In this document: positions 29,466 to 62,998 of the stretch, piece by piece
How the letters are laid out: each line of letters starts with the position of its first letter
How positions within the stretch are numbered: position 1 is the first letter of the stretch
From: an uncultured Acidobacteriota bacterium
GTDB taxonomy: Bacteria; Acidobacteriota; Thermoanaerobaculia; UBA5066; Gp7-AA6
DNA: 64,000 nucleotides
Direction of reading: 5' to 3'
Assembly (NCBI GenBank): GCA_963739435.1
Contig: CAVUAN010000024.1
Coordinates: 39,486 to 103,485, forward strand
Notes under the pieces: model-generated
Told to the model about the DNA's origin: nothing
Seen by the model: the letters and a program-made list of their open reading frames with translations, nothing else
The model's database searches: none
Program-made: the position numbers and the translations under genes

Positions 29466-30166
29466 AGCGGACCCGATTCTTGATCCTCGCGAGCCTCTTC
29501 CTGGCGCCATGGAGCGCTTCGGCGCAGCCGGCTCCCGGCACGATTTGGGAGTTCAAGGTGAACGACGCCTGGGGCCGCGACACGGTTCAATTCCTGACGG
29601 CCGCGCCTCTCGAAGACATCGTCGGGACCACGAACCAGCTCACGGGCGTCCTCCGCGCCGACCCGAAGAACCTCAAGGGACCCTCGACCGCCGTCCGTCT
29701 CGAGGTCACCCTCGCCTCGTTCAAGACCGGGATCGAGATGCGAGACGGTGCCGTTGCCAAAGCGCTCGGGGCCGAGCAGAATCCGCGTTCGACCTTCACT
29801 CTCGACCGAGTCCTGTCCGCTTCGGCAAGCACTCTCGAGCCCAACATCCTTGTGGACATCCAGGCCGAGGGAACCTTCGAGCTCAAGGGCGTGAAGAAGA
29901 GAATCGAGGTCGCCGCGAAGATCACATTCATCCCGAAAGGCGGCCCGTTCAGCCAGATGCGGCCGGGCAACTTCGTGAAGATCGTCGCCAAATTCGACAT
30001 CAAGCTCGCCGACTTCAGCGTCGAGCGCGCAGGCCCCGTGCTGCCCCTCCAGGTCGCCGACACCGCGCACATCACGGTCATGGCCCTGGCCAGCGACGCC
30101 ACCCCCGAAGAAGCCGAGGCCTACCGCCAGAAGGCCGTCAAGTACATGGGCAAGGCAGAAAACTAG
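29462..30166 (+). CDS. YceI-like periplasmic protein
   Basis: 234 aa with a signal peptide and a YceI-like beta-barrel pattern (..TFELKGVKKRIEV..). Start overlaps the upstream stop (ATGA). Confidence 0.7.
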   Translation: MKRTRFLILASLFLAPWSASAQPAPGTIWEFKVNDAWGRDTVQFLTAAPLEDIVGTTNQLTGVLRADPKNLKGPSTAVRLEVTLASFKTGIEMRDGAVAKALGAEQNPRSTFTLDRVLSASASTLEPNILVDIQAEGTFELKGVKKRIEVAAKITFIPKGGPFSQMRPGNFVKIVAKFDIKLADFSVERAGPVLPLQVADTAHITVMALASDATPEEAEAYRQKAVKYMGKAEN

Positions 30167-30711
30167 CGGGTTGAGCCGGGTGCCGTAAACGCGTCGCGCA
30201 GGCGAGCGCTACGCAGATATCCGAGCATGACGGCGAAGAAGGAGCCGAGCAGAAGGATGGCGCCAGCGCCGGCGAAAAGAGCCAGGGACCGCATCGATTC
30301 CGTCAACGAGGGATCCATGGTCGTCAGGCCGGCGTGACTCCAAAGCCCCAGCCAGAAGATCAGAAACCCAGCGGCGTAGCAGATTCCCAGACCGCAGACC
30401 GTCTGGATCGCGATCCGCGCCCAGGGCCGCAGCCGCAGGAGGTTCCACGCGGAGACGATGACGAGTGTCCAGAACGTGGCCTGCGCAAGAAACATCACGC
30501 CGGCGTGAGCCAGCATCGTCTGAACGAGCGGTACGTTCGCGAAACGCTCCCCGAAAGCCTGCAACAGAGCTGGAGCTGCCGAATGCAGAACGGACCAGGT
30601 CAACAGATTCATCAGCGCCTTGAGCACCAGGATCCCGCCCAGAACGATCCACACCCACCCGATGACCGTCACCGCCCGCGGCCGCTCCGGTTCCTCCGCC
30701 TGACCAATCAC
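30163..30711 (-). CDS. Hypothetical integral membrane protein (about 4-5 TM helices)
   Basis: 182 aa of hydrophobic segments: VIGWVWIVLGGILVL, VMFLAQATFWTLVIVSAW, GLGICYAAGFLIFWLGLW and LFAGAGAILLLGSFFAVMLG. Confidence 0.65.
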   Translation of the reverse strand: MIGQAEEPERPRAVTVIGWVWIVLGGILVLKALMNLLTWSVLHSAAPALLQAFGERFANVPLVQTMLAHAGVMFLAQATFWTLVIVSAWNLLRLRPWARIAIQTVCGLGICYAAGFLIFWLGLWSHAGLTTMDPSLTESMRSLALFAGAGAILLLGSFFAVMLGYLRSARLRDAFTAPGSTR

Positions 30712-30792
30712 TCAGCCCAAGAATACGCCCTAAAAAGACGTCGGGTTCGCCGGGGTCGACGTGGGGAGAAAACCTATAATCGCGGATCTCCC

Positions 30793-31923
30793 ATGACTAT
30801 CCCCGAAGTTGCGACTGTCCTCCCGCCTCTGTACGCGCGATGGATGGACGCTCTGCTCGCATCGCCGATCCCTCCCGAGAAGCGCGCAACGTGCGACGAC
30901 TGCGCCATGTGCGCGCCCGAAGGAACGGACCCGCTCGGCAGCATTCTGTACTTCAGCCCGCGCACGAAGTGCTGCACCTACCATCCGACGTTGTCCAACT
31001 ACCTGGTCGGACGGGCCCTCGAGGACCGCGACTTCGCGTTCTCGGCCGGGCGGGCGACCCTCGAGAAGCGTATCCGGGCAGGCGTCGGTGTGACTCCGCT
31101 CGGCGTCGGGGCGGCCCGGACCTTCAGCGTGCTGTACGAAAACGGCAGCCAGGCCTTCGGCCTTGCAGAATCCCTGCGCTGCCCCCACTACCTGGAGGAA
31201 GGGGGCGGGCGCTGCGGCATCTGGCGGCATCGGAACTCGATCTGCGCGACCTGGTTTTGCAAGTTCGAGCGGGGCGCCGTGGGAGAGGCATTCTGGGACC
31301 GGCTGCGCAACCTCCTCATGACGGTCGAGCGCGCGCTCGCCATCTGGTGCGTGCTGGAAGCGGGCCTCGAGACTGAGGCCCTCGGCGCGGTCTTCCCGCA
31401 GGACCAGCGGCCCGGCGGACGCGAACCCTTGACGGCGGCCGAGCTGGACGGTGTTCCGGACCCGCCCGTGGCTCGGAAGCTCTGGGGAGCCTGGTTCGGC
31501 CGCGAGGACGAGTTCTACCGTCTGTGCGGCCGGCGCGTGGAAACCCTGACGTGGCCCGACGTCGAGCGCATAGGCGGCTCGGAAGTCACCGCCCTGGCTC
31601 GACTGACGTCTCGCGCGTTCCACGCGCTTCGTTCCACGGAGCTGCCGGGGCGCCTCACCACGGGACCGTTCCAGGTGCTCTCCACGGGTCGCGAGGGGGT
31701 TCGGGTCATCGCCTACACGGGATCCGATCCTCTGGATCTCGACCCGGCGGTCATGGAGATTCTGCCTCACTTCGATGGCCGCCCCACCGGCCAGGTTCTG
31801 GCCTCGATCGAAAAGGAGCTTGGTGTCCGAGTGGAAGAGGATCTCGTGCGTAAGCTCGCCGACTTCGAGATCCTCAAACCATCTGGCTCGTCGAGCTCAT
31901 CTCGAGGGCCTCGCTCTTCTTAG
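30793..31923 (+). CDS. Cys-rich YkgJ-like (putative Fe/Zn-binding) protein with a PqqD/RRE-like C-terminal segment
   Basis: ATG at 30793 in ORF 30334..31923. Cys motifs are CDDCAMC, KCCTYHP and LRCPHYLEEGGGRCGIWRHRNSICATWFC (YkgJ-type C..C.I...R...C..F.C). The C-terminus AVMEILPHFDGRPTGQVLASIEKELGVRVEEDLVRKLADFEILKP fits the PqqD-like pattern ..DG..t..ei...l......e.l..dv..fl..l... Confidence 0.7.
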   Translation: MTIPEVATVLPPLYARWMDALLASPIPPEKRATCDDCAMCAPEGTDPLGSILYFSPRTKCCTYHPTLSNYLVGRALEDRDFAFSAGRATLEKRIRAGVGVTPLGVGAARTFSVLYENGSQAFGLAESLRCPHYLEEGGGRCGIWRHRNSICATWFCKFERGAVGEAFWDRLRNLLMTVERALAIWCVLEAGLETEALGAVFPQDQRPGGREPLTAAELDGVPDPPVARKLWGAWFGREDEFYRLCGRRVETLTWPDVERIGGSEVTALARLTSRAFHALRSTELPGRLTTGPFQVLSTGREGVRVIAYTGSDPLDLDPAVMEILPHFDGRPTGQVLASIEKELGVRVEEDLVRKLADFEILKPSGSSSSSRGPRSS

Positions 31924-32102
31924 ACCTCACCCTTCGATTTGTCCCGGCCCTTTGCCCTTTTTCCCGGTTGTCGAGCCGGTTGTTCCTGTCTTCCGAGGCG
32001 TTCGCCGAACACCCGTTTGGAGCTTCCACCTCGAACGTCCTTGCGGGGGGCCAGGTCGTTCAAGAGGATTACGTCCGGACGCCGGCGACGATCCTTCTTC
32101 AT
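31920..32102 (-). CDS. Stand-alone double-glycine-leader peptide (60 aa), seventh member of the peptide system
   Basis: Manual translation gives MKKDRRRRPDVILLNDLAPRKDVRGG|SSKRVFGERLGRQEQPARQPGKRAKGRDKSKGEV. An SD-like AAAGGGG lies 7-8 nt upstream, and a sigma-54-type promoter lies ~49 nt upstream. The ending DV(K/R)GG is shared with the array leaders. The ORF track lists it as 31920..32135 from an upstream ATG. Confidence 0.55.
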   Translation of the reverse strand: MKKDRRRRPDVILLNDLAPRKDVRGGSSKRVFGERLGRQEQPARQPGKRAKGRDKSKGEV

Positions 32103-32149
32103 TCGACACCCCTTTGACCTGCCGGCAGGAGGCATCGCGCTCTTCCTGG

Positions 32150-32165
32150 AGCAGTTTCCTTGCCA
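32150..32165 (-). promoter_or_regulatory. Sigma-54 (-24/-12) promoter candidate: TGGCAAggaaaCTGCT
   Basis: The minus strand reads TGGCAA-N5-CTGCT. The GG and GC have exactly the canonical spacing of TGGCAC-N5-TTGCW. It lies ~49 nt upstream of the peptide ATG at 32102. Confidence 0.6.
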
Positions 32166-32280
32166 TCCGTCGGGGCCGAAGCAAACCGCTCGCCAATCAG
32201 GAGTTCGGCAAGGGGCCGGGACCGGAACGCGCGCTCATGGTCGCGAACGGAGGCCATCGATGGTCTCGAAACGTATCCAG

Positions 32281-33279
32281 TCATCGCCGCACGGCCGGAC
32301 GATCCGAGAGCTTGCGGTCCAGCCGCGATCGGGAGATTCCCAGCGCCTTTGCCGCCCGCCGCTTGTTTCCTCCCAGCCGCGAGAGGACCTCTCGGATGTG
32401 CCGGCCCTCGGCGGCCGCCAGAGTGAGGCTTCCGTGCGGTGAGCCATCGCCTGCAGGATCCGGCGGATAGAACGCCGGCAAAGCCGGGATCTCGCGGTCC
32501 CCCTCCAGGAGCAGAGCCCCGGCCGTAACGATCTCCTGCGGTGAAAGAGCCACGGCTGCGTCGATGACCCGCGCCAGCTCCCGGAGGTTGCCGGGCCATG
32601 AGTAGGAAAAGATCCGCTCGGCCGCCTCCCGCTCGAGGCCCACGATCGGCTTGCGCTGCTGGCGGCTGGCACGGGCGATCTCGGAGGCGAGCAGCAACGG
32701 CAGGTCTTTTCGCCGATGCCGCAACGGCGGGACCGTGATCGTCAGACCGCTGACCCGAAAGAAAAGATCGCGCCGGAACCTGTCCGACTCGGTGAAGGTC
32801 ACCGCCGGGAAATGCGTGGCCGAGATGACCCGCACGTCGGCGACCTGGATCTGCTCCGAGCCCAGCCGCTCGAACTCGCCGTACTCGATCGCGCGCAGGA
32901 TCTTGGCCTGGCCGGCCGGGCTCATGTCGGCAATCTCGTCGATGAAGAGCGTGCCGCCGTCGGCCAGCTCGAACTTTCCCCGCACGCGGCTCTGAGCCCC
33001 TGTGAACGCCCCGCGCTCGTGGCCGAAGAGCTGGCTGTCCAGGAGCGTGTCGGAGAGCGCGGCGGCATTGAACGAGACAAAGGGTCCGCGAACGCGCGAG
33101 GAGCTGTTATGGATCGCCCGGGCCAATAGCGTCTTGCCGGTGCCCGACTCGCCCAGGATCAGGATCGGCAGGTCGGTCCGCGCCGCCAGCTTTGCCCGCT
33201 CGAGGCAGGCGGCCATCGCCGGATCGACGCTGTGGTAGGAGTCGAGCTTGAGGTCCGAGGAGCCGTCGGGGCGCGTCAT
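32281..33279 (-). CDS. Sigma-54-dependent transcriptional activator (bEBP) with AAA+ and Fis-type HTH domains only, no N-terminal sensor or receiver domain
   Basis: 332 aa: Walker A GESGTGKT, the GAFTGA motif (ERGAFTGAQ), LFIDEI, WPGNLREL, and a C-terminal HTH GGNKRRAAKALGISRSRL. Confidence 0.92.
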   Translation of the reverse strand: MTRPDGSSDLKLDSYHSVDPAMAACLERAKLAARTDLPILILGESGTGKTLLARAIHNSSSRVRGPFVSFNAAALSDTLLDSQLFGHERGAFTGAQSRVRGKFELADGGTLFIDEIADMSPAGQAKILRAIEYGEFERLGSEQIQVADVRVISATHFPAVTFTESDRFRRDLFFRVSGLTITVPPLRHRRKDLPLLLASEIARASRQQRKPIVGLEREAAERIFSYSWPGNLRELARVIDAAVALSPQEIVTAGALLLEGDREIPALPAFYPPDPAGDGSPHGSLTLAAAEGRHIREVLSRLGGNKRRAAKALGISRSRLDRKLSDRPAVRR

Positions 33280-33286
33280 GCTTTGA

Positions 33287-34510
33287 TCACTTCTCGCTGG
33301 CCAGGTTCTCCTTCAACTGGCGCAGCGGCTCGAAGGCGTACGAGAGGAGCGACCGCCGGCCCACGATGACGCGGGCGCGTCCGGCCATGCCGGGGACCAC
33401 GGGTCGGGGCTGTCCGTGGACCAGGACCTGCGTCTCACGCAGGTCCGCAAGGGCGCGGAAGGCCGACGTGCCGCCCTTGCCGCCGACTGTCTCGGGGCTG
33501 ACCCAGCGGATGGTCGCCTGGCGCACTCCGTAGCGCTGATAGGGGAAGGCGTCGTACAGGAGCTTGACGGGCTGGCCGGTTCGGACGAGCGCCATCCCAT
33601 CCTGCGGCAAGGTCAGCTCCGCCTGGAGCGTCTGGCCCTCGCATGCCAGTTCGGCCAGAAGGTCGCCCTCGCGGACGGTCGCGCCGGCGCTGCGAACGTG
33701 CAGCTGGAGGATGCTCCCGGTACAGGGGGCTGGCACAGTCAACTGGTTTCCCGTCCGGGCGAGCTCCTTCTCGAGCATTGCCGTGCGGATGTTCGCCCGG
33801 GAGAGCTCTTCGGCGAGACCGCGCTGGACCTCCTGGAATTGAGCCTGTCGCGAGCGCCGCTCGAAGCGCAGCTTCTCCGCGGCACGCCGCGTGTCTTCGC
33901 GTTGGGATTTGGCCTGCTCGGCCTCGACCTCGAGCCGGTTGATCTCCAGCCGCAGGCGCGCGAGATCCATCCAGCTCGACACTCCCTCGTCGAGGGTCTT
34001 CTTCTGGCGGTCCGCGAGCTCGGCCGCGAGAGCGAGCTGCTCGCCGTTCTTGACAATCGTCCGATCCAGGCTCTCGAGGCGCGCCTTCAGCTGCTGCTCC
34101 TCTTCGCCGTCTGCCTTCTGCTCACCGTCGTACTTCTGCCGGGCGTTGGCGAGGCGGTCCCCGGCGCCGGCAATCTGAGCTTTCAGGCCTTCCCACTCCG
34201 CCGCGCGGTCACCGACCGGCGGAGAGGCAATCGTGAACATCGTTTCACCCTCCCGGACCGGCTGCGCGTCGAAAGCCTTGACCTCCGTCACGATCCCGTC
34301 CTTGAAGGCGCGTATCGGGTCGGTGCCACGGACGGGAGCGAGGACGAACGTAGCCGCCACCGTCTCCGGGACGCGGAGGAGGACCGCCGCCAGGGCCGCA
34401 AAGGCAAAGAGCGCGAGAAGGATCGAAGCGAGCGCCCGGGCGGCCCACGGGGGCGGCTCCCGGTCGAGAAAGGGCTCTGCGCTTTCGGGAGATCCGGCGA
34501 CAGCGTTCAT
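33287..34510 (-). CDS. HlyD-family membrane fusion / secretion adaptor protein
   Basis: ATG at 34510 in ORF 33287..35101. One N-terminal TM helix (ILLALFAFAALAAVLL), a long coiled-coil (QLKARLESLD..RLEINRLEVEAEQAK), and a C-terminal beta-barrel ending GMAGRARVIVGRRSLLSY. Confidence 0.88.
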   Translation of the reverse strand: MNAVAGSPESAEPFLDREPPPWAARALASILLALFAFAALAAVLLRVPETVAATFVLAPVRGTDPIRAFKDGIVTEVKAFDAQPVREGETMFTIASPPVGDRAAEWEGLKAQIAGAGDRLANARQKYDGEQKADGEEEQQLKARLESLDRTIVKNGEQLALAAELADRQKKTLDEGVSSWMDLARLRLEINRLEVEAEQAKSQREDTRRAAEKLRFERRSRQAQFQEVQRGLAEELSRANIRTAMLEKELARTGNQLTVPAPCTGSILQLHVRSAGATVREGDLLAELACEGQTLQAELTLPQDGMALVRTGQPVKLLYDAFPYQRYGVRQATIRWVSPETVGGKGGTSAFRALADLRETQVLVHGQPRPVVPGMAGRARVIVGRRSLLSYAFEPLRQLKENLASEK

Positions 34511-37500
34511 CAGTCCGACACCCCGAGCTGCTGGCTCGAAAGATAGTAGTAGAGGCCCTTTCGCTGGAGAAGCTCGTCGTGCGTGCCGCGTTCGACCAGC
34601 CTCCCCTTCTCGAGCACCAGGATGGTATCCGCGTTGCGGATGGTGCTCAGGCGGTGGGCGATGACGAAGCAGGTGCGCCCCTCGAGCAGCCGGTCCATGT
34701 TCTCCTGCACGGCGCGCTCGGATTCGGTGTCGAGCGAGCTCGTCGCCTCGTCGAAGATCAGAACGGGTGGCTGGGTATAGACCGCCCGGGCGATGGCGAC
34801 CCGCTGCTTCTGGCCGCCGGAGATGGCCAGGCCGCTCTCGCCGATCTTCGTTTCGTAGCCCAGCGGCAGCCGGTCGATGAACTCGTGCGCATTGGCCACG
34901 CGCGCCGCCCAGAGCACTCGATCCATGTCGGGCTCCGCCTCGCCGAAGGCGATGTTCCGGGCGATCGTGTCCGAGAAGAGATAGTTCTCCTGGAGGACGA
35001 ACCCGATCTGGCGCCGCAGGTCGCGGTAGTTCAGGGTCTTCAGATCGACGCCATCGTAAGTAATCGAGCCCTGCGTCGGCTCGAGCAGGCCCGCCAGGCA
35101 CTTGACCAGAGTCGTCTTGCCCGAGCCGCTGCGGCCGACGATCGCCACGAACTGGCCGGGCGGAGCCTCGAAGCTGATGCCCTCGAGAATCGGCAGGCGC
35201 TTCGGGGCCGCCGTAGCGAGAAGCCGAGGTTCGTCAGCTCGATCGCGGCCCTCGAGGCTCTTGACCGGATGGAGGCGCGAGCGGTCGGCGCCCTGCTCGG
35301 GCTCCTGCTCGAAGACGTCGTTCAGGCGGTTCAAGAGAACCGAGGAGCGCTGCCAGTTGTCCCAGATCGTGAGCAGCGTCAGCACCGAGACGTTGGCCAG
35401 CGCGACGAGCGAGTTGAAAGCAACCAGGCCGCCGATGGTGAGCGGACCCGGCCATCACCTGGCGGGCGCCGGCCCACAGGAAGAGCACGGTCGTCAGGAT
35501 GGTCACGGTCTGCACGCCTCCCAGGTACGACATCACCGTGAAGTCGGCCCGGAACATGCGCCGTCGCCACGCTCAGGAACTGATTCAAGCATGATCTCGC
35601 GGAAGGAGCCTTCGGCGCCCAACGCCTTCACCGTCTCGATGCCTTTGATGGCGTCGATCTGGTGGGAGTGGTACTTGCCGAAGGAGTCCTCGAGGGTGTC
35701 GAAGACGGGGCGCAGCCAACGGGCGGAAAGAACCATCAATAGCCCGTAGAGGGGAGCCGTCAGCAGGAATACGACGGTCAGCGCACGGCTGTAGATGAGC
35801 ATGAGGATGAGGCTCGCGCCGAGCTGGGTCGCCGCCGCGAGCCCCGCAACACCGCTCTGGACCAGGAACTCCCGGACATTCCGCATGCCTTCGAGACGCC
35901 GCTGAATGTCTCCCGTGCGGCGCGTCGAGAAGTAGACATCGGAAGGGCCAGGAGCTTGCGGGTCAGGAAGTCGAGCGATGACGCGTCGATCCGCACGGCG
36001 ACGAAGCTCAACAGATAGCGCTGGACGCCCATCGATAGGACCTGGAAGACCAGGACCGCGATCATCGAGACGACGATCATGTTCAAGAGCGACGCGTCGT
36101 CGTTCGACGAGCACCCGATCAACGATGACCTGCGTGAAGATGGGCAGAATCATCTGCAGGGCGGCACCGATCAGGCCGAGCCCGAGCGCCTGGAGCAGGA
36201 TGCGCTGGAAGGGCCGGAAGAACGGTACGAGCCACGCCAGATTCGACGGCGTGACCGGCGCCGTCTCGAACGCGTCGGTGTAGTCGAAGAGGGCGGCATA
36301 GCCGGACCAGCGCTCTTCGAACTCGGAACGGGTGAACCGCCGCAACCCGAAAGCCGGGTCGGCAACGCGGCAGTGCGTCGGCGTGACGTCGTGGAGCACC
36401 ACCCAGTGGTTGCCCTCCCAGTGAACGATGGCGGGCAGCGGCATCTGCGCAAGGTTCTCCGGGGAGGCCTTGACCGACCGCGCGGCGAGGCCAAGCTCGG
36501 TCGCGGCGTGGCAGAGCCCCTTCAAGCTCGTGCCGTCCAGGGACGTGTGCACGAGCTGGCGGATGCGCGCCAGGCTGACAGCCCGCCCGTAGTGCCGGCA
36601 CACCATGGCGAGGGACGCGGCGCCGCAATCCATCTCGTCGATCTGCCGCACGACGGGGAAGCGCCGGATGCGGCCGGCCGACTTGACGAAGCGGCCGTCC
36701 TCGGCGAAGGGGGCGCCCTCGACCTCGCCGCCCGCCTCGGTCTCCTCCTCGCCCTGCTCGACCTGATCCGGGCCAACCATCTCCTGGACGGCAGCCTCGG
36801 CGGGCAGGATCTCCTCGGCGAAGTCGAGGGGTACGCGCGCGGTCTGCCGGTAATCGTATTGCGCAATCCGTTCTTCGATCTGGGCCCCGAGGCCGGGAAC
36901 CTCGGCGAGGAGCTTGCGGAAAGTGTCGGGGCGCAGCACGAGGAGCCGGCACGGCGAGACGGCTTCCACGCTCGCGGTGCGCGAGACCCCCTGGAAGACG
37001 GACATCTCCCCGAAGAAATCTCCCTTGCGAAGATAGGCGACATAGCGGCGGCGGCCGTCCTCCTCGGTGAAGACGCGCAGGTGCCCGTCTTCCACGATGT
37101 AGAGCGGCCCGGCCGAATCGCCCTGACGCACGACGACTGTTCCCTTCGTGACTTCGAGCGGAGCGAGCTCCGACAGAAGCGTCGCGAGAGCGGCCGGGGG
37201 AAGCCGGGCGTACGGGATGTAGTGGTGAAAGAAGTTCTCGAGCTTGCGGTGCTTGATTTGGAGCTCGAAGTATTGGCGGATGTCCGGGCTGCGTCGCACG
37301 AGCGCTTCGAAGACGGACTTGTCCAGCCGCAGAGCCTCCACGTCGCTGGACGCTCGAACGGTCGCCGTGCGGGTCGAGTGGTCCAGCAGACCCATCTCGC
37401 CGAAGCTTTGTCCGGGCCGCAGGCTGGTCAGGGCGATCTCCTCCCCCTGCTCGCCGAGCTTGACGACGCGCGCTTTTCCGGACACCAGGACGTAGAACGC

Positions 37501-37641
37501 GTCCGCTGAATCGCCTTCCCGGACGATCAGGTCGCCGAAGGCGAACGATGCCGGCTCGAAGCTCTCGACGACGAGGGCCCGGGTGTCGGCAGGCAGGAAC
37601 CGCAGGATCGGCAGGTCTTCGAGCCGCTCGCGTCCGGTCAT
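34510..37641 (-). CDS. Peptidase-C39 ABC exporter (PCAT) with two N-terminal cyclic-nucleotide-binding domains; at least five apparent frameshifts (~36100, ~35945, ~35590, ~35560, ~35450)
   Basis: ATG at 37641. There are two CAP_ED-like domains (FGEMGLL..RTATV.A and FFGEMSVF..SRTASVEA). The C39 domain is VVRQIDEMDCGAASLAMVCRHYG..HWVVL. The TMD pieces lie in ORFs 35533..37995, 35778..36122, 35379..35588 and 35234..35557. The NBD in ORF 34510..35385 carries GRSGSGKTT, LSGGQKQRVAIARA and LIFDEATS. A stretch GRDRADEPRLLATAAPKR at ~35170-35250 looks locally out of frame, where GRIELTNLGFS.. would be expected. Confidence 0.85.
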
Positions 37642-37645
37642 GGCG

Positions 37646-38707
37646 TCAGATCCGCTGGACCCAGCGAACGCGCGCCTGGATCTCGTGTTCGACGGCGGCC
37701 GCCCGCAGGTGGAACTCGGCGCGCCGCCGGACCTCCGGGTCCCTCTCCGAGGGCAGGGCCTTGTCACGGACGAGAAGGAGATGGAACTCCTCTCCGAGCC
37801 GGAGCGGGCCCACGAGATCGCCCGGACCGGCCCCGAGCAGCTGGGGCCTTGCGGTCTCATCGACGTCTTCCAGGTACAGACGCGACTCCCGCGGCGCGGT
37901 GTGCGCGTTGGCGGCGACCGCTTCGAGCGAGTCGCCGTCCTCTCGCAGGCACAGCAGCGCCTCTTGCGCGGCGGCCTCCCGGGTGAAGCCGACATCCTGG
38001 ACGTCCAGCCGGACCCAGTCGAGGTTTCGCGCCTCGATCGCTCTGCGGACGGCCGGCGGCGTGGCGAGGCGGCGGCAAATGTCTTCGAACACGAGAGTCA
38101 GCCTCGCCAGCTCCGCGATCCGCTCGGCTCCAGGCGGTACCAGGTCGGGAGGTCCGGACCGCTCGAAAACGCTCGAGACCTCGACAACGGCGCGCTTCAT
38201 GTCTTTGGGCGTCGGCTCTGCGTGCTGGCCCGTCCCTCCGGCTGCAGACGCCTGCCCGAGGGCGGCTTGCCCGGCGAGGGTCTCGGCGAACCGGGACAGC
38301 GCTCCGGAACAAACCGACTCGGCCAGGATGCACTCCGAGATCTCGTCGTTCTCGGGAGCGAAGGCGGACAGGTCCTCATCGGGAGTGCCGCCAGCCCGCA
38401 GGAGCGCCCGCTCGATGTACTCCATCCAGTCGTCGACAGAAAGCCCGGCGCGGGCCAGCCACGCCTCCATTTCCTCGGCCGCAATGAGCTCGCGCTCGTA
38501 TCGGAACTCCTGTGCGGCCGCTTCGAGCTCCTCCTCGGAGACCGTCTCTCCGGCCTCTTCCGCGCGGTGGGAGAGGGCGAGGCCCTGGCGGACCTGCTCC
38601 TCGAGTGCGGACCAGTCTCCCCGCAGCACGGCGGCGGCAGCGACATCCCGCCACATGTAGGTGTGCTCACCTACGGTGAACGCCGGACGAGTCCAAAAAG
38701 TGTCCAT
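37646..38707 (-). CDS. Parvulin/PpiC-like C-terminal-domain protein, putative peptide maturation or chaperone component
   Basis: ORF 37646..38863. The likely start is ATG 38707 (MDTFWTRPAFTVGEHTYMWRDV); the alternative is GTG 38863. The C-terminus PGDLVGPLRLGEEFHLLLVRDK resembles the end of rotamase domains (G.vs.Pv.t..G.Hii.v). It lies 4 nt upstream of the PCAT start. Confidence 0.7.
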   Translation of the reverse strand: MDTFWTRPAFTVGEHTYMWRDVAAAAVLRGDWSALEEQVRQGLALSHRAEEAGETVSEEELEAAAQEFRYERELIAAEEMEAWLARAGLSVDDWMEYIERALLRAGGTPDEDLSAFAPENDEISECILAESVCSGALSRFAETLAGQAALGQASAAGGTGQHAEPTPKDMKRAVVEVSSVFERSGPPDLVPPGAERIAELARLTLVFEDICRRLATPPAVRRAIEARNLDWVRLDVQDVGFTREAAAQEALLCLREDGDSLEAVAANAHTAPRESRLYLEDVDETARPQLLGAGPGDLVGPLRLGEEFHLLLVRDKALPSERDPEVRRRAEFHLRAAAVEHEIQARVRWVQRI

Positions 38708-38874
38708 GTCGTGGCGGCGAAACGATACCAGCGAAGCCGAAGTCCACGGCGAGACAATTGGTTTCACTTCGATACCATCATGTCCCGTTTCGATCGGCAG
38801 TCCGTACTCGGCGCCGGGGCAGCCCTCTCGGCAAAGCCCCTTGAGAGCAAGAAGTTCGGACACCTCCGGGCGGC

Positions 38875-38890
38875 TGGCACCGATGCTGCT
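38875..38890 (+). promoter_or_regulatory. Sigma-54 (-24/-12) promoter candidate: TGGCACcgatgCTGCT
   Basis: A perfect TGGCAC -24 box, N5, and a CTGC -12 box with canonical spacing. It lies ~33 nt upstream of the GTG of the first peptide gene and shares the CTGCT -12 element with the promoter at 32150..32165. Confidence 0.7.
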
Positions 38891-38921
38891 ATACGATCAG
38901 GGAACGAAGGGAGGACGCATC

Positions 38922-39110
38922 GTGAGCAAGAAGAAAGCGGCGAAAGCGAAAACGGCCCGAGGCATCCGGAATCTTCCCGCGAAGACGCTGACCGCCAAGA
39001 ACGCCCGGAACGTCAAAGCCGGCAAGGCTCAGAATGCCGACGGATCACTGGATGCGGGCATACATTTCAAGTACGACATCAAGGCCCAGAAAAACTTTCG
39101 CACTCGTTGA
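38922..39110 (+). CDS. GG-leader peptide 1 (62 aa)
   Basis: GTG start preceded by GGGAGG. Sequence: VSKKKAAKAKTARGIRNLPAKTLTAKNARNVKAG|KAQNADGSLDAGIHFKYDIKAQKNFRTR. It is the C-terminal part of track ORF 38661..39110. Confidence 0.75.
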   Translation: MSKKKAAKAKTARGIRNLPAKTLTAKNARNVKAGKAQNADGSLDAGIHFKYDIKAQKNFRTR

Positions 39111-39154
39111 TCGGGGGAAAGGTCCCGCGAGGCCTGAGATCAATTGGTTCCGAC

Positions 39155-39283
39155 GTGAGCAAGGTGAAAGAGAAGGCGGCCCGTGGCACCCGGGATGTTC
39201 CCGTGAGGACGCTGACCGCCAACCATGCTCGGGACGTCAAGGGGGGGCGAGGCGCCGGAGTGAAGCGACACCAGTACATGTAG
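39155..39283 (+). CDS. GG-leader peptide 2 (42 aa, most divergent, no clear SD)
   Basis: VSKVKEKAARGTRDVPVRTLTANHARDVKGG|RGAGVKRHQYM. It is the C-terminal end of the spurious track ORF 37583..39283. Confidence 0.5.
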   Translation: MSKVKEKAARGTRDVPVRTLTANHARDVKGGRGAGVKRHQYM

Positions 39284-39347
39284 TCGCCCCAGGAATCTCG
39301 GCTGACATCGGTACGGCTGCTGTGAGCGAAGAAAGAAAGGGGACACC

Positions 39348-39500
39348 ATGAGCAAGAAGAAGGCAGCGAAAGCGAAGACGGCCCCAGGCATCCGGAAGCT
39401 TTCCCCGAAGACGCTGACCGCCAAACAGGCCAGGGGCGTCAAGGGTGGCAAGCACATCGGCAACGTCAAGTACACAGACAACACCGGACTCAAGCGATGA
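39348..39500 (+). CDS. GG-leader peptide 3 (50 aa)
   Basis: Manual translation: MSKKKAAKAKTAPGIRKLSPKTLTAKQARGVKGG|KHIGNVKYTDNTGLKR. An SD-like AAAGGGG lies upstream. Not in the ORF track (<60 aa). Confidence 0.75.
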   Translation: MSKKKAAKAKTAPGIRKLSPKTLTAKQARGVKGGKHIGNVKYTDNTGLKR

Positions 39501-39544
39501 TGACCAGGAGGCCTTAGAAAAAAGGACGTTAAGGAGGAGGCGAC

Positions 39545-39697
39545 ATGACCAAGAAGAAAGCGGCCAAAGCGAGCAAGGCCCGAGGCATTCGGAAGCTTCC
39601 CTCGAAGACGCTGACCGCCAAACAGGCGCGGGACGTCAAGGGCGGCAGGAAGATCGGCGACATCAAGGGGGAAAGCCTCGGAATAATCAGGCGATGA
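39545..39697 (+). CDS. GG-leader peptide 4 (50 aa)
   Basis: Manual translation: MTKKKAAKASKARGIRKLPSKTLTAKQARDVKGG|RKIGDIKGESLGIIRR. A strong SD, AAGGAGGAGG, lies upstream. Not in the ORF track. Confidence 0.8.
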   Translation: MTKKKAAKASKARGIRKLPSKTLTAKQARDVKGGRKIGDIKGESLGIIRR

Positions 39698-39738
39698 CGA
39701 CAAGGAGAGCTTAAGAAAAACGTTGAGGAGGGGGCAGC

Positions 39739-39894
39739 ATGAGCAAGAAAAAGCCAGCGAAAGCAAAAACGGCCCGAGGCATCCGGAATCTTCCCGCAAA
39801 GAGCTTGTCCGCCAAATCGGCCCGGGACGTCAAGGGGGGCCGCAAGGCCGGCAAGGGCCAACAGGAGTTCTTGAGCGCCATCCGAGAAAGGTAG
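39739..39894 (+). CDS. GG-leader peptide 5 (51 aa)
   Basis: Manual translation: MSKKKPAKAKTARGIRNLPAKSLSAKSARDVKGG|RKAGKGQQEFLSAIRER. The SD is GAGGAGGGGG. The intergenic spacer is homologous to the one before peptide 4. Not in the ORF track. Confidence 0.8.
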   Translation: MSKKKPAKAKTARGIRNLPAKSLSAKSARDVKGGRKAGKGQQEFLSAIRER

Positions 39895-39900
39895 GGCGAC

Positions 39901-40095
39901 ATGGACAAGAAGAAGACCGGGAAGACCAGGAAGTCCAGGGCGGCCACCTCGGTGAGAAATCTTCGCGTGAAAACGCTCGACGCCAGGAGCGCGAAGGGCG
40001 CCAAGGGAGGCGCCACGAGCGAGCTGACGATAACGCGCGTCGTCGACAAGTCCAGCCCGGTCTTATACCAGTCCGAGCCGAGCCTGAAGAGATAA
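39901..40095 (+). CDS. GG-leader peptide 6 (64 aa)
   Basis: Track ORF: MDKKKTGKTRKSRAATSVRNLRVKTLDARSAKGAKGG|ATSELTITRVVDKSSPVLYQSEPSLKR. The leader is divergent but keeps RNL..KTL.A..AKG.KGG. Confidence 0.75.
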   Translation: MDKKKTGKTRKSRAATSVRNLRVKTLDARSAKGAKGGATSELTITRVVDKSSPVLYQSEPSLKR

Positions 40096-40168
40096 CCAGA
40101 GAGCGACAGCTCGTCCCCCGAAGCAACTGAGGGAGGAGGCGCGCGCCGCGCGGACGCGCGAGCGACGG

Positions 40169-40621
40169 TTACACCTCGCTGTACTCCGGGACGTAGCCCG
40201 CCATCAGGCTGTCCTTGGGCAGGATCGTCTGGCCCGGGCCGGCGCCTGGATCGCCCGTCTTGACCCAGTGCCAGGCGTGAACGATCTCGGCGGCCGGGTA
40301 ATAGCGCGTCTCCGCCTGGACCAGGACCGTGCCGGCGAGGATCTCCGCCTTGATGTCCTCCCAGCGGTGCGCGCCCACGACGGCCACGCGCTCGATCTGC
40401 TTCGCGTGCCTGGAGAGGAACTTGATCTCTTCCCACCGGGCAGCCCATTCGGTCCCCTTCATGGCGGAAAGATCCGCCAGGATTCCGATCGTCCGCTTGC
40501 CCCGATCGCCCATTGCCGTCTCGATCTGAGGTTCGAAGGCTTTGACCTCGGCAGCTGTGACCGTCCCGGTCACCTTGAACCCGAACGCCTTTCCCCCGCT
40601 CTCCTTCAGCTTCTCGATCAT
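40169..40621 (-). CDS. STAS/SpoIIAA-like protein (DUF3478-like)
   Basis: 150 aa: FGFKVTGTVTAAEVKAFEPQIE..IGILADLSAMKG..ERVAVVG. The family call is from memory. Confidence 0.65.
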   Translation of the reverse strand: MIEKLKESGGKAFGFKVTGTVTAAEVKAFEPQIETAMGDRGKRTIGILADLSAMKGTEWAARWEEIKFLSRHAKQIERVAVVGAHRWEDIKAEILAGTVLVQAETRYYPAAEIVHAWHWVKTGDPGAGPGQTILPKDSLMAGYVPEYSEV

Positions 40622-40828
40622 GAGCTCCTCTTCTCCATTTCTTTGAGCAGCCTACCATCCGCTCGCAACGCGAGGAGTCTCCCGAGCGAACGCGAGGGAG
40701 GAGCCTCCCGCCGCGGGAGCGGAGCGCGAGCGCCGGACGAGGCTCGCGGTCGAGCCCGCATCCGGGCGAGCCGCGCGGCGGTGCGCCCGCAGGGCGCAGA
40801 TCCCCCGCGCAGCGCGGAGCGACGGTAT

Positions 40829-40903
40829 TGGAGCGGGAAACCGGGGTCGAACCGGCGACATCCACCTTGGCAAGGTGGCGCTCTACCACTGAGCTATTCC
40901 CGC
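40829..40903 (-). tRNA. tRNA-Gly (anticodon GCC), CCA encoded
   Basis: The minus strand reads GCGGGAATAGCTCAGTGGTAGAGCGCCACCTTGCCAAGGTGGATGTCGCCGGTTCGACCCCGGTTTCCCGCTCCA. It folds as a cloverleaf with a 7-bp acceptor stem, the anticodon stem CCACC/GGTGG with loop TTGCCAA, and a GTTCGA T-loop. Confidence 0.93.
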
Positions 40904-40939
40904 AAGGGAGCGAGAGGATAGCCGAGGGGGGAAGCCCCG

Positions 40940-41578
40940 TCAAGCCTGCGGGAGCTCCTTGACCGGACCCCCGCAGTGCTGGCACACGCGGATGATCGTT
41001 GCGCCGAACTTCTTGGTCGGGGCGCACTCTTCGCACAGCGGCCTCGACGACTCCGTGCACTGAAAGAACGCCACGTGGTCGGTGTGCGTCCGGCAGCACA
41101 TCGGGGGTGTGACGCGTGCCGTCTTTCGCAGGGCAAAGAGAGACTTCAGATAGGGAAGATCGCCGGCCGGCACCGCGCCCCCGTCATTGACGCGGATGCG
41201 GTCCCGATCGTTGACCTCGCCGGTGCGGATCAAGGCCCGCATGCCGCGCCGGTCGAAGACGTCATTCTCGAAGCCAGGCTTCTCGATGTGGAAGCGGGTG
41301 CTGTCCCCGGGACTCGCCGCGCCCGCCGGTTCGTCGGCTGCCGCGGAAGGCCGGCTCGCAGGAGGGTCGGCCGGGGCTCGCGAAGGGGCGGGCGCCGTTG
41401 CCTTGACCTGGAGGGAGGCGTACACCCTTGCCTCGTCGCGAGACGGGAAGTCCATGGGTTGCGTACAGCTGGGACAACGGAAGCGAGCCTTGACCGGAGG
41501 GATCCGCTCGAGCTCGATCGAGAAGTTCCCGCCGCACTTTGGGCATGTAAAGGTGTAGCTGGGTGCGGGGTCGGTCAA
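40940..41578 (-). CDS. Zinc-ribbon (MJ0042-type) / GYF_2-like / B-box-type zinc-finger protein, hypothetical
   Basis: 212 aa. The N-terminus is CPKCGGNF..FRCPSCTQ. The C-terminus is a Cys/His cluster, CCRTHTDH..FQC..PLCEEC..VCQHCGG. Confidence 0.7.
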   Translation of the reverse strand: MTDPAPSYTFTCPKCGGNFSIELERIPPVKARFRCPSCTQPMDFPSRDEARVYASLQVKATAPAPSRAPADPPASRPSAAADEPAGAASPGDSTRFHIEKPGFENDVFDRRGMRALIRTGEVNDRDRIRVNDGGAVPAGDLPYLKSLFALRKTARVTPPMCCRTHTDHVAFFQCTESSRPLCEECAPTKKFGATIIRVCQHCGGPVKELPQA

Positions 41579-41626
41579 GCGATCGCCCTCCGGATCTTAC
41601 GGAAGTTTAGCATCCCGACGGCGAAC

Positions 41627-48390: not shown

Positions 48391-48409
48391 CGCGGCGGAG
48401 TGTACCGGA

Positions 48410-51255: not shown

Positions 51256-51259
51256 CCCG

Positions 51260-52279: not shown

Positions 52280-52372
52280 TCGGACCCTCGCTGCCTGATG
52301 GATACCACGAGTGCCGGGATTATATCGGCCCGCGGGCAACCCTGAAGCTCGCTCCGGGCCTCACGCCTCGCC

Positions 52373-53081: not shown

Positions 53082-53156
53082 GGCCGAACCGCGCATTTTA
53101 GCGAAGCCTCCGCTCCAGTCAAATGGAAGCGGTTGGGAGACTGTAAACTGCTCCAA

Positions 53157-61984: not shown

Positions 61985-61992
61985 CGGCCTCG

Positions 61993-62994: not shown

Positions 62995-62998
62995 GGAT

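What the first reader, a model, noticed from the sequence alone, without database searches (positions are those of the whole stretch)
32150..38890. Two near-consensus sigma-54 promoters sit in front of the peptide genes, next to a sensor-less sigma-54 activator
TGGCACcgatgCTGCT (38875-38890, + strand) lies ~33 nt upstream of peptide 1. TGGCAAggaaaCTGCT (32165-32150, - strand) lies ~49 nt upstream of the stand-alone peptide at 32102. Both have the exact GG-N10-GC spacing of the TGGCAC-N5-TTGCW consensus and share an identical -12 box, CTGCT. The last gene of the exporter operon (32281..33279) encodes a bEBP with only an AAA+ domain (GAFTGA present) and a Fis-type HTH. It has no receiver, GAF or PAS input domain, as in PspF or HrpR/S. 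Such activators are normally controlled by a protein antagonist rather than by a ligand. I found no -24/-12 element for the exporter operon itself. Bacteriocin/RiPP precursor genes driven by sigma-54 and a constitutively active-type bEBP, paired with an exporter that carries cNMP-binding domains, is an unusual regulatory design.
Basis: partly seen in the sequence, partly recalled or inferred. Interest (0 to 1): 0.65.

Follow-up and report, generated by a model that had tools for sequence, protein, structure and literature searches.

The report
Sigma-54 switch for exported peptide genes
Two genuine-looking sigma-54 promoters, each preceded by a conserved binding site for the sensor-less activator encoded next door, drive small exported-peptide genes in a cassette shared by soil Acidobacteriota and Gemmatimonadota, and several of the peptides turn out to be fragments of the type VI secretion tube protein Hcp.

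Summary
TGGCACcgatgCTGCT (38875-38890, +) and TGGCAAggaaaCTGCT (32165-32150, -) lie 31 and 47 nt upstream of GG-leader peptide genes, and the 332-aa activator (32281-33279, -) has only an AAA+/GAFTGA domain and a Fis-type HTH. Match quality alone is not significant: 13 sites with two or fewer mismatches were found against 15 expected. Context decides the case. The two sites are the top PWM hits of the window. A -24/-12 block (TGGCA-N7-TGCT) recurs after the orthologous activator gene in about 20 loci from two phyla. It is the only conserved block in otherwise diverged spacers. No locus has such an element upstream of the exporter operon. I also found a 17-bp dyad, GGTnTCG-N3-CGAnACC, 80-137 nt upstream of the -24 elements. 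A matrix trained only on Gemmatimonadota sites picks 38760 and 32262 as the two best hits in the whole window. The likely mechanism is that the exporter operon delivers the activator, which then turns on the cargo genes. What controls the activator is unknown. Unexpectedly, several peptide cores are collinear fragments of Hcp, whose genes are classically sigma-54/VasH-controlled. I rate this a new variant of known kinds, of moderate to high interest.

The parts
38875..38890 (+). P1: sigma-54 -24/-12 element TGGCACcgatgCTGCT. The predicted transcription start is about 38900-38901. It drives the six-gene peptide array.
   Evidence: Sequence. One mismatch to the consensus. PWM score 14.3 bits, second best in the window. 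An orthologous site, TGGCACCGGGTCTGCT, sits in front of the divergent peptide array in L003.
38760..38776 (.). Candidate activator-binding dyad (UAS) for P1, GGTTTCACTTCGATACC, 115 nt upstream of the -24 element and 53 nt upstream of the divergent exporter operon start codon.
   Evidence: Best hit in the whole window (19.9 bits) for a matrix trained only on Gemmatimonadota sites. 19.4 bits with the pooled matrix.
38713..38729 (.). Possible second, weaker dyad for P1, GGCGGCGAAACGATACC, 47 bp from the main one.
   Evidence: 10.1 bits. Tandem dyads are seen in many related loci. This copy is weak on its own.
38922..40095 (+). Array of six tandem genes for 42-64-aa peptides with K/R-rich leaders that end in a GG (or AG) cleavage motif: 38922-39110, 39155-39283, 39348-39500, 39545-39697, 39739-39894 and 39901-40095.
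   Evidence: Translations. Homologous peptides are found in related loci. Only P1 precedes the array; there are no internal -24/-12 sites. Several cores are Hcp fragments.
32150..32165 (-). P2: sigma-54 -24/-12 element TGGCAAggaaaCTGCT. The predicted transcription start is about 32139-32140. It drives the stand-alone peptide gene.
   Evidence: Sequence. PWM score 16.3 bits, the best in the window. It lies in the only invariant block (TGGCAAG.A...TGCT) of the alignment of activator-to-peptide spacers from four Acidobacteriota loci. L012 has TGGCAAGGAACCTGCT at the same place.
32262..32278 (.). Candidate activator-binding dyad (UAS) for P2 (minus strand GGATACGTTTCGAGACC), 113 nt upstream of the -24 element and 3 nt after the activator gene's stop codon.
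   Evidence: Second-best hit in the window (13.8 bits) for the matrix trained only on Gemmatimonadota sites. 16.7 bits with the pooled matrix. A weak second copy lies at 32239-32255 (6.7 bits).
31920..32102 (-). Stand-alone peptide gene pepS (60 aa; leader ...VILLNDLAPRKDVRGG, core SSKRVFGE...). It is the one cargo type found in 11 of the 12 loci (all but the truncated L005).
   Evidence: Translation. Orthologues are found in L001-L004, L006-L012, L015 and L026.
32281..33279 (-). Sigma-54 activator (bEBP) of 332 aa with an AAA+ domain (GESGTGKT, GAFTGA), a lid and a Fis-type HTH, and no N-terminal sensor domain. It is the last gene of the exporter operon.
   Evidence: Pfam. Sequence. NCBIfam matches are generic and all below the equivalog cut-offs. 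Orthologues start 15-60 nt after the end of HlyD in all 10 genome loci.
33287..34510 (-). HlyD-family membrane-fusion protein (407 aa).
   Evidence: Pfam HlyD_3 and HlyD_D23. TIGR01843 and TIGR03794 matches are below their cut-offs.
34510..37641 (-). Peptidase-containing ABC exporter with two N-terminal cNMP-binding domains, C39, a transmembrane domain and a nucleotide-binding domain. In this window the reading frame is interrupted by two compensated frame-shifted stretches (about 36100-35935 and 35563-35450).
   Evidence: The intact orthologues are 1042 aa.
37646..38707 (-). First gene of the exporter operon: a 353-aa cytoplasmic protein distantly related to the PpiC-like TIGR04500 'peptide maturation' family.
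   Evidence: TIGR04500 scores 43.5 bits against a cut-off of 180. The family is small, with 34 clusters, mostly unnamed. It was used as the marker to fetch related loci.
32180..32212 (-). Weaker sigma-54-like 16-mer (TGGCGAgcggtTTGCT, 32195-32180) overlapping a terminator-like hairpin (32212-32189), between the activator gene and P2. It is probably the operon's terminator region, not a promoter.
   Evidence: The GC of the -12 element is not kept in L001 or L004.

Best explanation
The two elements are functional sigma-54 promoters of a conserved peptide-export cassette.

Proposed sequence of events:
1. The exporter operon (PpiC-like protein, cNMP-C39-ABC exporter, HlyD, activator) is read from a promoter that is not sigma-54 dependent and that I could not identify.
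2. The product of its last gene, a sensor-less activator (bEBP), binds as dimers to 17-bp dyads (GGTnTCG-N3-CGAnACC). These lie about 113-115 nt upstream of each -24 element in the window and 80-137 nt upstream across related loci.
3. The bound activator oligomerises, loops to sigma-54 RNA polymerase held at TGGCA-N7-TGCT, and uses ATP to open the promoter.
4. This switches on the six-gene peptide array (P1) and the stand-alone peptide gene (P2).
5. The peptides carry double-glycine leaders. The C39 domain cleaves the leaders and the ABC/HlyD machinery exports the peptides.

Because the activator has no input domain, cargo expression is set mainly by how much activator the exporter operon supplies. 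This is an 'exporter first, cargo second' cascade, like VasH and the auxiliary hcp clusters of Vibrio cholerae. The P1 dyad lies 53 nt from the start codon of the divergent exporter operon, so the activator may also autoregulate its own operon, as PspF does.

Shown here: the sequence elements, their positions, and their conservation and co-occurrence. Inferred: binding, sigma-54 dependence, the cascade logic and any autoregulation.
For: 1. Site quality and position. P2 and P1 are the first and second best PWM hits of the window. They lie 47 and 31 nt upstream of Shine-Dalgarno-preceded peptide genes. The chance of this is about 3e-5 and 2e-4 per gene.

2. Conserved gene order. PpiC-like, exporter, HlyD, activator, then peptides is kept in 10 genome loci from Acidobacteriota and Gemmatimonadota, in L012, and in the metagenome loci long enough to show it. 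In L026 the order is permuted, but activator, dyad, promoter and pepS stay adjacent.

3. Conserved promoter. A -24/-12 element follows the activator gene or precedes a peptide array in nearly every locus, giving 16 sites with consensus TGGCA-N7-TGCT. It is the only invariant block in a spacer alignment with 44% mean identity.

4. Cross-validated dyad.
- A matrix trained on Gemmatimonadota sites alone ranks 38760 and 32262 first and second in the 64-kb window. It also ranks the correct spacer first in L001, L003 and L004, and joint second in L002.
- The reciprocal test, with an Acidobacteriota-trained matrix, ranks it first in L007, L008, L009 and L011 and second in L010, but not in L006.
- In L012, which was not used for training, the two best sigma-54 hits (14025, 17221) lie 91 and 90 nt downstream of the two best dyad hits (13934, 17131).
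- In 247 kb of new metagenome loci there are 6 dyad-plus-promoter pairs. All are on the operon strand and just downstream of the activator gene. The reversed-sequence control gives 0.

5. Negative control. No -24/-12 element lies upstream of the exporter operon in the window or in the 12 related loci tested.

6. Sensor-less architecture is conserved.

7. Precedents in the literature. RpoN and VasH activate auxiliary hcp clusters only after the main cluster that encodes VasH is expressed (PMC10482370). Sfa3 is a bEBP without an N-terminal domain in a secretion gene cluster (PMC8855297).
Against: - There are no expression data, transcription start sites or binding data.
- rpoN is not in the window or in any fetched locus, so the presence of sigma-54 in the organism is assumed from the presence of a bEBP.
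- My sigma-54 PWM is an approximation written from memory of published frequencies.
- Match quality alone is not above chance for 64 kb.
- Some related loci have weak elements: L009 at 6.8 bits, L007 at 8.4 bits, and L044/L045/L049 with TGGT in place of TGC at -12.
- I first spotted the dyad by eye, so the pooled matrix is partly circular. Only the cross-phylum test and the L012 test are independent.
- The exporter gene in this window is frame-shifted. If that is real, the system is decaying here.
Confidence: 0.8

Rival explanations
1. The activator does not simply act in proportion to its amount. It is held inactive by a partner protein acting in trans, in the style of PspA-PspF or HrpV-HrpS, or as Hcp does with VasH. 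Candidates are unexported precursor peptides, the PpiC-like protein, or the cytoplasmic cNMP domains of the exporter. This would couple cargo transcription to export capacity. It elaborates the main model rather than excluding it.
For: The absence of a sensor domain is conserved in all orthologues. Known sensor-less bEBPs are controlled in trans (PspF and HrpS, from established knowledge). In V. cholerae, high Hcp levels bind VasH and repress its targets (PMC10482370), and several cargo peptides here are Hcp fragments. The exporter carries ligand-binding domains, and the related HetC domain binds ppGpp.
Against: No PspA-, HrpV- or HrpG-like gene is in the cassette. No interaction can be tested with these tools. 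The cassette keeps only four proteins, each with another obvious role.
Confidence: 0.25
2. The two 16-mers are chance matches in GC-rich DNA. The peptide genes are read from ordinary promoters or by read-through, and the activator regulates something elsewhere.
For: Consensus matches with two or fewer mismatches are no more frequent than in shuffles: 13 found against 15 expected. Shuffled windows reach comparable top scores.
Against: The top two hits of the window both land in the two short spacers in front of peptide genes and in the right orientation. The element is conserved across two phyla, while the flanks are not where spacers were aligned. It is coupled at a fixed distance to a cross-validated dyad. 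No sigma-70-type consensus was found in 31700-40400.
Confidence: 0.04
3. The 17-bp dyad is an RNA hairpin, that is, a terminator or processing site after the activator gene, and not a protein-binding site.
For: In several loci the dyad lies just after the activator gene's stop codon, and perfect copies such as GGTCGCGAAACGAGACC could form a 7-bp stem.
Against: The dyad also occurs where no gene ends: upstream of P1 in the divergent spacer (38760) and before second peptide arrays (L012 17131, L011 17596-17655). Window copies are imperfect as stems but keep specific bases (G2 95%, T3 75%, C6 82% in the matrix). It is not followed by a T-run. It often occurs in tandem about 22-24 or 42-47 bp apart, as activator sites do.
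Confidence: 0.05

Closest known systems
VasH / RpoN control of hcp operons in Vibrio cholerae type VI secretion (also Sfa2 and Sfa3 in Pseudomonas aeruginosa)
   Same: A bEBP encoded inside a secretion-machinery operon activates sigma-54 promoters in front of separately transcribed cargo genes, so the cargo follows the machinery (PMC10482370). Sfa3 lacks an N-terminal domain, like this activator (PMC8855297). Some of the cargo here is Hcp-derived.
   Different: The machinery is a type I-like peptidase-ABC/HlyD exporter, not a T6SS. The cargo consists of 40-64-aa leader peptides, not full-length Hcp. VasH and Sfa2 have N-terminal domains. No T6SS gene is in the window or in the fetched loci. 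Orthology of the activator to VasH or Sfa3 was not tested.
PspF (with the divergent pspF / pspA-E promoters) and HrpR/HrpS
   Same: A bEBP made only of an AAA+ domain and an HTH. Its binding sites lie in a spacer shared with its own divergently transcribed operon, which allows autoregulation (the PspF case is from established knowledge). The AAA+ domain matches PspF structures at E = 2e-57.
   Different: It is not a PspF orthologue: TIGR02974 scores 246.6 bits against a cut-off of 443.55. ZraR, NifA and NtrC1 match as well or better. There is no PspA- or HrpV-type antagonist gene, and the targets are exported peptides, not stress or type III secretion genes.
Peptidase-containing ABC transporter (PCAT) systems for double-glycine peptides: class II bacteriocins and microcins, the NHLP export set TIGR03796/TIGR03794, and HetC
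   Same: A C39 peptidase-ABC exporter with a HlyD partner and tandem small genes with GG leaders. N-terminal cNMP-type domains as in HetC, which binds ppGpp (PMC10986499), and as in the TIGR03896 family.
   Different: Known GG-peptide loci are typically controlled by peptide-sensing two-component systems or Rgg-type regulators (established knowledge; e.g. PMC7018657, listed). I found no report of sigma-54/bEBP control. No immunity gene or modification enzyme is evident.
TIGR04500 PpiC-like partner proteins (MirC) of graspetide clusters
   Same: A PpiC-like protein encoded next to a TIGR03796-type PCAT (PMC13097080).
   Different: The similarity is weak (43.5 bits against a cut-off of 180, covering residues 13-101 only), and there is no ATP-grasp enzyme here.

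Membership tests
Sigma-54 (-24/-12) promoter | GG and GC doublets exactly 10 nt apart within TGGCAC-N5-TTGCW | tested here: met
   P1 has 1 mismatch and P2 has 2 mismatches, and both keep GG and GC. PWM scores of 14.3 and 16.3 bits are the top two in the window.
Sigma-54 (-24/-12) promoter | Correct placement: upstream of a gene, same orientation, leaving a short 5' UTR with a ribosome-binding site | tested here: met
   The gaps to the start codons are 31 nt and 47 nt. The predicted 5' UTRs of about 21 and 37 nt contain GGGAGG / AAAGGGG.
Sigma-54 (-24/-12) promoter | Conservation of the element at orthologous positions while the flanks diverge | tested here: met
   Searches give 16 sites with consensus TGGCA-N7-TGCT in two phyla.
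Sigma-54 (-24/-12) promoter | A cognate bEBP and an upstream activator site about 80-150 bp from the promoter | tested here: met
   The activator gene is adjacent. The dyad lies at -113 and -115 and was cross-validated between phyla and in L012.
Sigma-54 (-24/-12) promoter | rpoN present in the genome, and transcription start and expression dependent on RpoN | not testable with these tools
   No RpoN box was found in the window or in any fetched locus. No genome or expression data are available.
bEBP without a regulatory domain (PspF / HrpR/S / Sfa3 type) | AAA+ sigma-54 interaction domain with Walker A and GAFTGA, plus a C-terminal HTH | tested here: met
   Sigma54_activat E = 2.2e-59, HTH_8 E = 3.9e-9. 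GESGTGKT and GAFTGA are in the sequence.
bEBP without a regulatory domain (PspF / HrpR/S / Sfa3 type) | No receiver, GAF, PAS, V4R or other N-terminal input domain | tested here: met
   The AAA+ domain starts at residue 19 of 332. Orthologues start directly after HlyD in all 10 genome loci.
bEBP without a regulatory domain (PspF / HrpR/S / Sfa3 type) | Control by a dedicated antagonist protein acting in trans | not testable with these tools
   No PspA- or HrpV-like gene is in the cassette or its flanks. Absence of a recognisable gene is not proof.
PspF (equivalog TIGR02974) | Score above the curated equivalog cut-off | tested here: not met
   246.6 bits against a cut-off of 443.55. No NCBIfam equivalog cut-off is reached by any bEBP model.
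PCAT / double-glycine peptide export system | C39 peptidase domain fused to an ABC exporter, with a HlyD-family partner | tested here: met
   Peptidase_C39 E = 1.3e-37, ABC_membrane, and a nucleotide-binding part matching TIGR01846 and TIGR03796. HlyD_3 E = 4.6e-16.
PCAT / double-glycine peptide export system | Substrate genes with N-terminal leaders ending in GG, GA or AG | tested here: met
   Seven peptides in the window and about 65 unique ones in related loci.
PCAT / double-glycine peptide export system | Intact exporter reading frame in this window | tested here: not met
   There are two compensated frame-shifted stretches. Orthologues are intact at 1042 aa. This is probably long-read indel error, because other ORFs in the window and in L012 are also broken.
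Type VI secretion tube protein Hcp (PF05638) | A full Hcp domain scoring above the Pfam gathering score | tested here: not met
   Single peptides score 14-23 bits against a cut-off of 23.5 and cover only 20-45 profile positions. They are fragments, not Hcp proteins.

The most novel reading that the evidence does not exclude
The cassette may be a repurposed piece of type VI secretion biology. A VasH/Sfa3-like sigma-54 module that once drove hcp would now drive mini-genes encoding single Hcp strands fused to double-glycine leaders. The exported peptides would act as Hcp mimics that interfere with, or report on, T6SS tubes of neighbouring cells. Unexported precursors would feed back on the sensor-less activator, as Hcp does on VasH.

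The evidence establishes the Hcp-fragment cargo and the sigma-54/activator wiring. It neither supports nor excludes the evolutionary link or the anti-T6SS and feedback functions.
Probability: 0.15. Interest if true: 0.85.

Novelty: new variant of a known kind. Interest (0 to 1): 0.62.

Why it matters
Double-glycine peptide systems (bacteriocins, microcins, signalling peptides) are usually described as wired to quorum-sensing two-component or Rgg-type regulators. Here a cassette conserved in at least two poorly studied soil phyla uses a tightly closed sigma-54 promoter and a dedicated activator with no input domain, encoded as the last gene of the exporter operon.

That gives a testable 'machinery before cargo' design and a defined regulon signature: a dyad, about 90-115 nt of spacer, then TGGCA-N7-TGCT. 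The signature can be used to find cargo genes too short for ordinary annotation.

Part of the cargo is a set of Hcp fragments, and hcp genes are the classic sigma-54/VasH targets. This raises a possible link between type I peptide export and type VI secretion that I did not find described in the papers I could search.

Tried and rejected
- Counting consensus matches and comparing top PWM scores with shuffles showed no enrichment, so match quality alone cannot carry the claim.
- The 26-sequence alignment A1 was too diverse for a locus search. The 13-sequence alignment A2 worked.
- A sigma-70 consensus scan of 31700-40400 found nothing, so the exporter operon's own promoter stays unidentified.
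- An Rfam scan of 30000-42000 found only a tRNA.
- NCBIfam has no model for the peptides, and Pfam hits only some of them.
- The contig of P0004, a closer relative, could be listed but its DNA could not be fetched.
- I considered a composite DNA pattern scan (dyad plus promoter) of metagenomes to find other regulon members such as full-length hcp. I dropped it because real dyads are too degenerate. An exact pattern would miss most true sites, and a degenerate one would give roughly 1000 chance hits by my estimate.
- The third sigma-54-like site at 32195-32180 was rejected as a promoter. It is not conserved and overlaps a terminator-like hairpin.
- The automated picks for L003 and L011a were wrong sites. 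The real L011a element is CGGCACGCCACCTGCC at 16690.
- Six literature searches found no prior description of sigma-54-driven GG peptides or of Hcp-fragment peptides. The library lacks most subscription journals, so this is not proof of novelty.

Full report
**1. What is in the window**

On the minus strand there is one operon:
- a 353-aa protein distantly related to the PpiC-like TIGR04500 family (38707 to 37646);
- a peptidase-containing ABC exporter with two N-terminal cNMP-binding domains (37641 to 34510);
- a HlyD-family adaptor (34510 to 33287);
- a 332-aa sigma-54 activator, or bEBP (33279 to 32281).

After a 116-nt spacer comes a 60-aa peptide gene, pepS (32102 to 31920). Divergent from the operon, on the plus strand, lie six tandem genes for 42-64-aa peptides (38922-40095). 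All seven peptides have K/R-rich leaders ending in GG (AG in the first), which is the cleavage motif of C39 exporters.

The activator has GESGTGKT, GAFTGA, an AAA+ lid and a Fis-type HTH, and only 18 residues precede the AAA+ domain. Its nearest relatives are Acidobacteriota metagenome-assembled genomes. The window is 63-70% G+C.

**2. The observation**

They lie 31 nt and 47 nt upstream of the start codons. The predicted transcription starts, about 38900 and about 32139, leave 5' UTRs that contain good ribosome-binding sites.

Quality alone is not significant:
- the consensus with two or fewer mismatches occurs 13 times against 14.95 expected;
- shuffled windows reach a mean top PWM score of 13.9 bits.

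Position is what stands out. With an approximate PWM of my own, the three best hits of 128,000 positions all fall in the two spacers in front of peptide genes (16.3, 14.3 and 11.8 bits). At background rates of 3.3e-7 and 2.3e-6 per position, the chance of such a hit within 100 nt upstream of a given gene is about 3e-5 and 2e-4.

**3. Comparative evidence**

I used the PpiC-like protein as a specific marker. It fetched 11 genome loci from Acidobacteriota, Thermoanaerobaculia and Gemmatimonadota, one closer relative, L012, and 42 metagenome loci.
- The order PpiC-like, exporter, HlyD, activator, peptides is kept wherever the contig is long enough.
- The activator always begins 15-60 nt after HlyD, so the lack of a sensor domain is a family trait.
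- A -24/-12 element follows the activator gene or precedes a peptide array in nearly every locus. Acidobacteriota have TGGCAAGGAAGGTGCT-type sites and Gemmatimonadota have TGGCCCATCGCTTGCT-type sites. The overall consensus of 16 sites is TGGCA-N7-TGCT.
- In an alignment of four Acidobacteriota spacers with 44% mean identity, this element is the only invariant block.
- The P1 arrangement (promoter in the divergent spacer) recurs in L003 with TGGCACCGGGTCTGCT.
- None of the 13 loci has a -24/-12 element upstream of the exporter operon (best score 7.8 bits or less).

**4. A candidate activator-binding site**

Upstream of the promoters I noticed a 17-bp dyad, GGTnTCG-N3-CGAnACC, 80-137 nt from the -24 element. 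It often occurs in two copies, 22-24 or 42-47 bp apart. Because I found it by eye, I tested it across phyla.
- A matrix built only from Gemmatimonadota sites ranks 38760 (19.9 bits) and 32262 (13.8 bits) first and second in the entire window. These lie 115 and 113 nt upstream of P1 and P2. The same matrix ranks the right spacer first in L001, L003 and L004.
- The reciprocal test ranks it first in L007, L008, L009 and L011.
- In L012, which was not used for any training, the two best sigma-54 hits (14025 and 17221, at 15.5 and 15.7 bits) lie 91 and 90 nt downstream of the two best dyad hits (22.4 and 17.3 bits).
- In 247 kb of metagenome loci there are six dyad-plus-promoter pairs. All are on the operon strand and just downstream of the activator gene. 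A reversed-sequence control gives none.
- In L026 the gene order is permuted, yet activator, dyad, promoter and pepS remain adjacent.

The dyad is not a terminator hairpin. It also occurs where no gene ends, it keeps specific bases rather than pairing, and it is not followed by a T-run.

**5. Mechanism**

The best-supported reading is a two-step cascade. First, an unidentified promoter expresses the exporter operon; no sigma-54 element and no sigma-70 consensus was found for it. Second, the operon's last product, the sensor-less activator, binds the dyads and activates sigma-54 polymerase at P1 and P2. Cargo peptides are therefore made only once the exporter is being made.

The P1 dyad is 53 nt from the exporter operon's start codon, which would allow autoregulation as in pspF. 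I could not establish what, if anything, restrains the activator. There is no PspA- or HrpV-like gene. The exporter's cNMP domains more likely gate export, by analogy with HetC, whose domain binds ppGpp (PMC10986499). Binding, sigma-54 dependence and the cascade logic are all inferences. rpoN itself is not in any sequence I hold.

**6. An unexpected feature of the cargo**

Several peptide cores are fragments of the T6SS tube protein Hcp.
- Pfam T6SS_HCP is the only family hit for window peptide 6 (E = 0.005) and for L001_17536 (2.4e-4) and L003_9042 (0.057). It is the top of two hits for L003_17756 (1.3e-4).
- Cores joined in Hcp order score E = 2.9e-17 against PF05638. They align collinearly with P. 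aeruginosa Hcp1, PDB 1y12, at E = 1.4e-11. I chose the order of that concatenate myself, but the per-peptide tests do not depend on it.
- Eight cores have z-scores of 6-11 against Hcp1 in shuffling tests. They map to residues 11-30, 53-88, 90-111 and 140-151. In the window, peptide 4 carries KIGDIKGES, peptide 6 carries ITRVVDKSSPVLYQ, peptide 5 carries RKAGKGQQEF and peptide 1 carries ADGSLDAGIHFKYDIK.
- Only about 8-12 of roughly 65 unique cores are Hcp-like, and these are mostly in Acidobacteriota.
- A search of 1.84 billion representative proteins with peptide 6 found a few more such peptides. It also found long proteins with 6-8 tandem copies of the TKxxDKxSPxL module.

hcp operons are the textbook targets of RpoN and VasH, and Hcp binds VasH to repress them (PMC10482370). 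Sfa3 is a T6SS-associated bEBP without an N-terminal domain (PMC8855297). A T6SS origin for this regulatory module is therefore an attractive hypothesis, but it is untested. No T6SS gene is in the window or in the loci I hold.

**7. Comparison with known systems and novelty**

The promoter type, the bEBP class and the exporter class are all known kinds. The activator is not an orthologue of PspF or of any curated bEBP equivalog and is generic by PDB comparison. What I could not find described is sigma-54/bEBP control of double-glycine peptide genes, the conserved cassette itself, or the Hcp-fragment peptides. The searchable library is incomplete. I rate the finding a new variant of a known kind, with confidence 0.8 that the promoters are real and served by the adjacent activator, and interest 0.62.

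**8. Caveat on sequence quality**

The exporter gene in the window has two compensated frame-shifted stretches (about 36100-35935 and 35563-35450). Orthologues are intact at 1042 aa. Several other ORFs in the window overlap as if shifted, and L012, another 'contig_' assembly, shows broken gene calls in the same gene. Long-read indel errors are the likelier cause, but a pseudogene is not excluded.

Noticed in passing
window 38922-40095 (peptides 1, 4, 5, 6); L001 17536-17700; L003 9042-9817, 16759-17168, 17756-17923; L004: The cores of several GG-leader peptides are collinear fragments of the T6SS tube protein Hcp. Cores joined in Hcp order score E = 2.9e-17 against PF05638 and E = 1.4e-11 against PDB 1y12. 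Eight cores have z-scores of 6-11 in shuffling tests. Pfam T6SS_HCP was the top or only Pfam family for four single peptides. Their function is unknown.
   Followed up: partly
proteins P0036, P0037, P0040, P0041, P0044 (sequences of P0037, P0040 and P0044): Long proteins (562-2481 aa) from metagenomes contain 6-8 tandem copies of the same Hcp-like module (...FQDLSVTKYIDKATPKLL... or ...TKRIDKSSPLLYE...). This Hcp segment seems to be reused as a free-standing repeat unit.
   Followed up: no
window 31920-32102 (-); orthologues in L001-L004, L006-L012, L015, L026: pepS has a leader type different from the array peptides (..V.LL[KN]DLAPR..[VI][KR]GG) and a conserved core start (GKR.FGE). It was found in 11 of the 12 loci checked (all but the truncated L005), plus L015 and L026 among the metagenome loci. 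It is often the first gene after the sigma-54 promoter. It could be a signal or regulatory peptide rather than a toxin.
   Followed up: partly
window 34510-37641 (-), especially about 36100-35935 and 35563-35450: The ABC exporter gene has two stretches read in another frame, with the frame restored each time. Orthologues are intact at 1042 aa. This is either long-read indel error or an early pseudogene.
   Followed up: partly
window, e.g. 47647-49378, 50272-52360, 52554-55405, 61037-63009: Several pairs of long, high-GC3 ORFs overlap on the same strand as if single genes were split by frameshifts. This suggests indel errors across the whole window.
   Followed up: no
window 32180-32212 (-): A third sigma-54-like 16-mer (TGGCGAgcggtTTGCT, 11.8 bits) sits 30 nt upstream of P2. 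It overlaps a terminator-like hairpin just downstream of the activator gene, and its -12 GC is not conserved in L001 or L004.
   Followed up: partly
L011 16540-18363: A tandem duplication covers the 3' end of the activator gene, the dyads, the promoter and a trio of peptide genes. This gives two complete regulatory-plus-cargo units.
   Followed up: partly
L026 8071-10001: The gene order is permuted. The activator, dyad, promoter and pepS lie upstream of the PpiC-like gene on the same strand, so the exporter operon there may itself be read from the sigma-54 promoter.
   Followed up: no
L007 838-853 (-) and 2182-3452; L008 3093-3108 (-) and 4450-5461: A good sigma-54-like site (TGGCTAAGTCATTGCA, 13.4 bits) points away from the PpiC-like gene with no dyad nearby. 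Between the PpiC-like and exporter genes lie two GG peptides of a different type (..IKDLPLP...GG).
   Followed up: no
L044 6932, L045 7592, L049 6325: In the most distant relatives (29% identity in the marker protein), the element after the activator gene reads TGGCACAGATACTGGT, with GG instead of GC at -12. This is either a non-canonical promoter or a decayed one.
   Followed up: no
window 40832-40903 (-) and 40169-40651 (-): A tRNA gene (Rfam, 69.4 bits) and a SpoIIAA-like (STAS-type) gene lie just downstream of the peptide array on the opposite strand. There is no evident link to the cassette.
   Followed up: no
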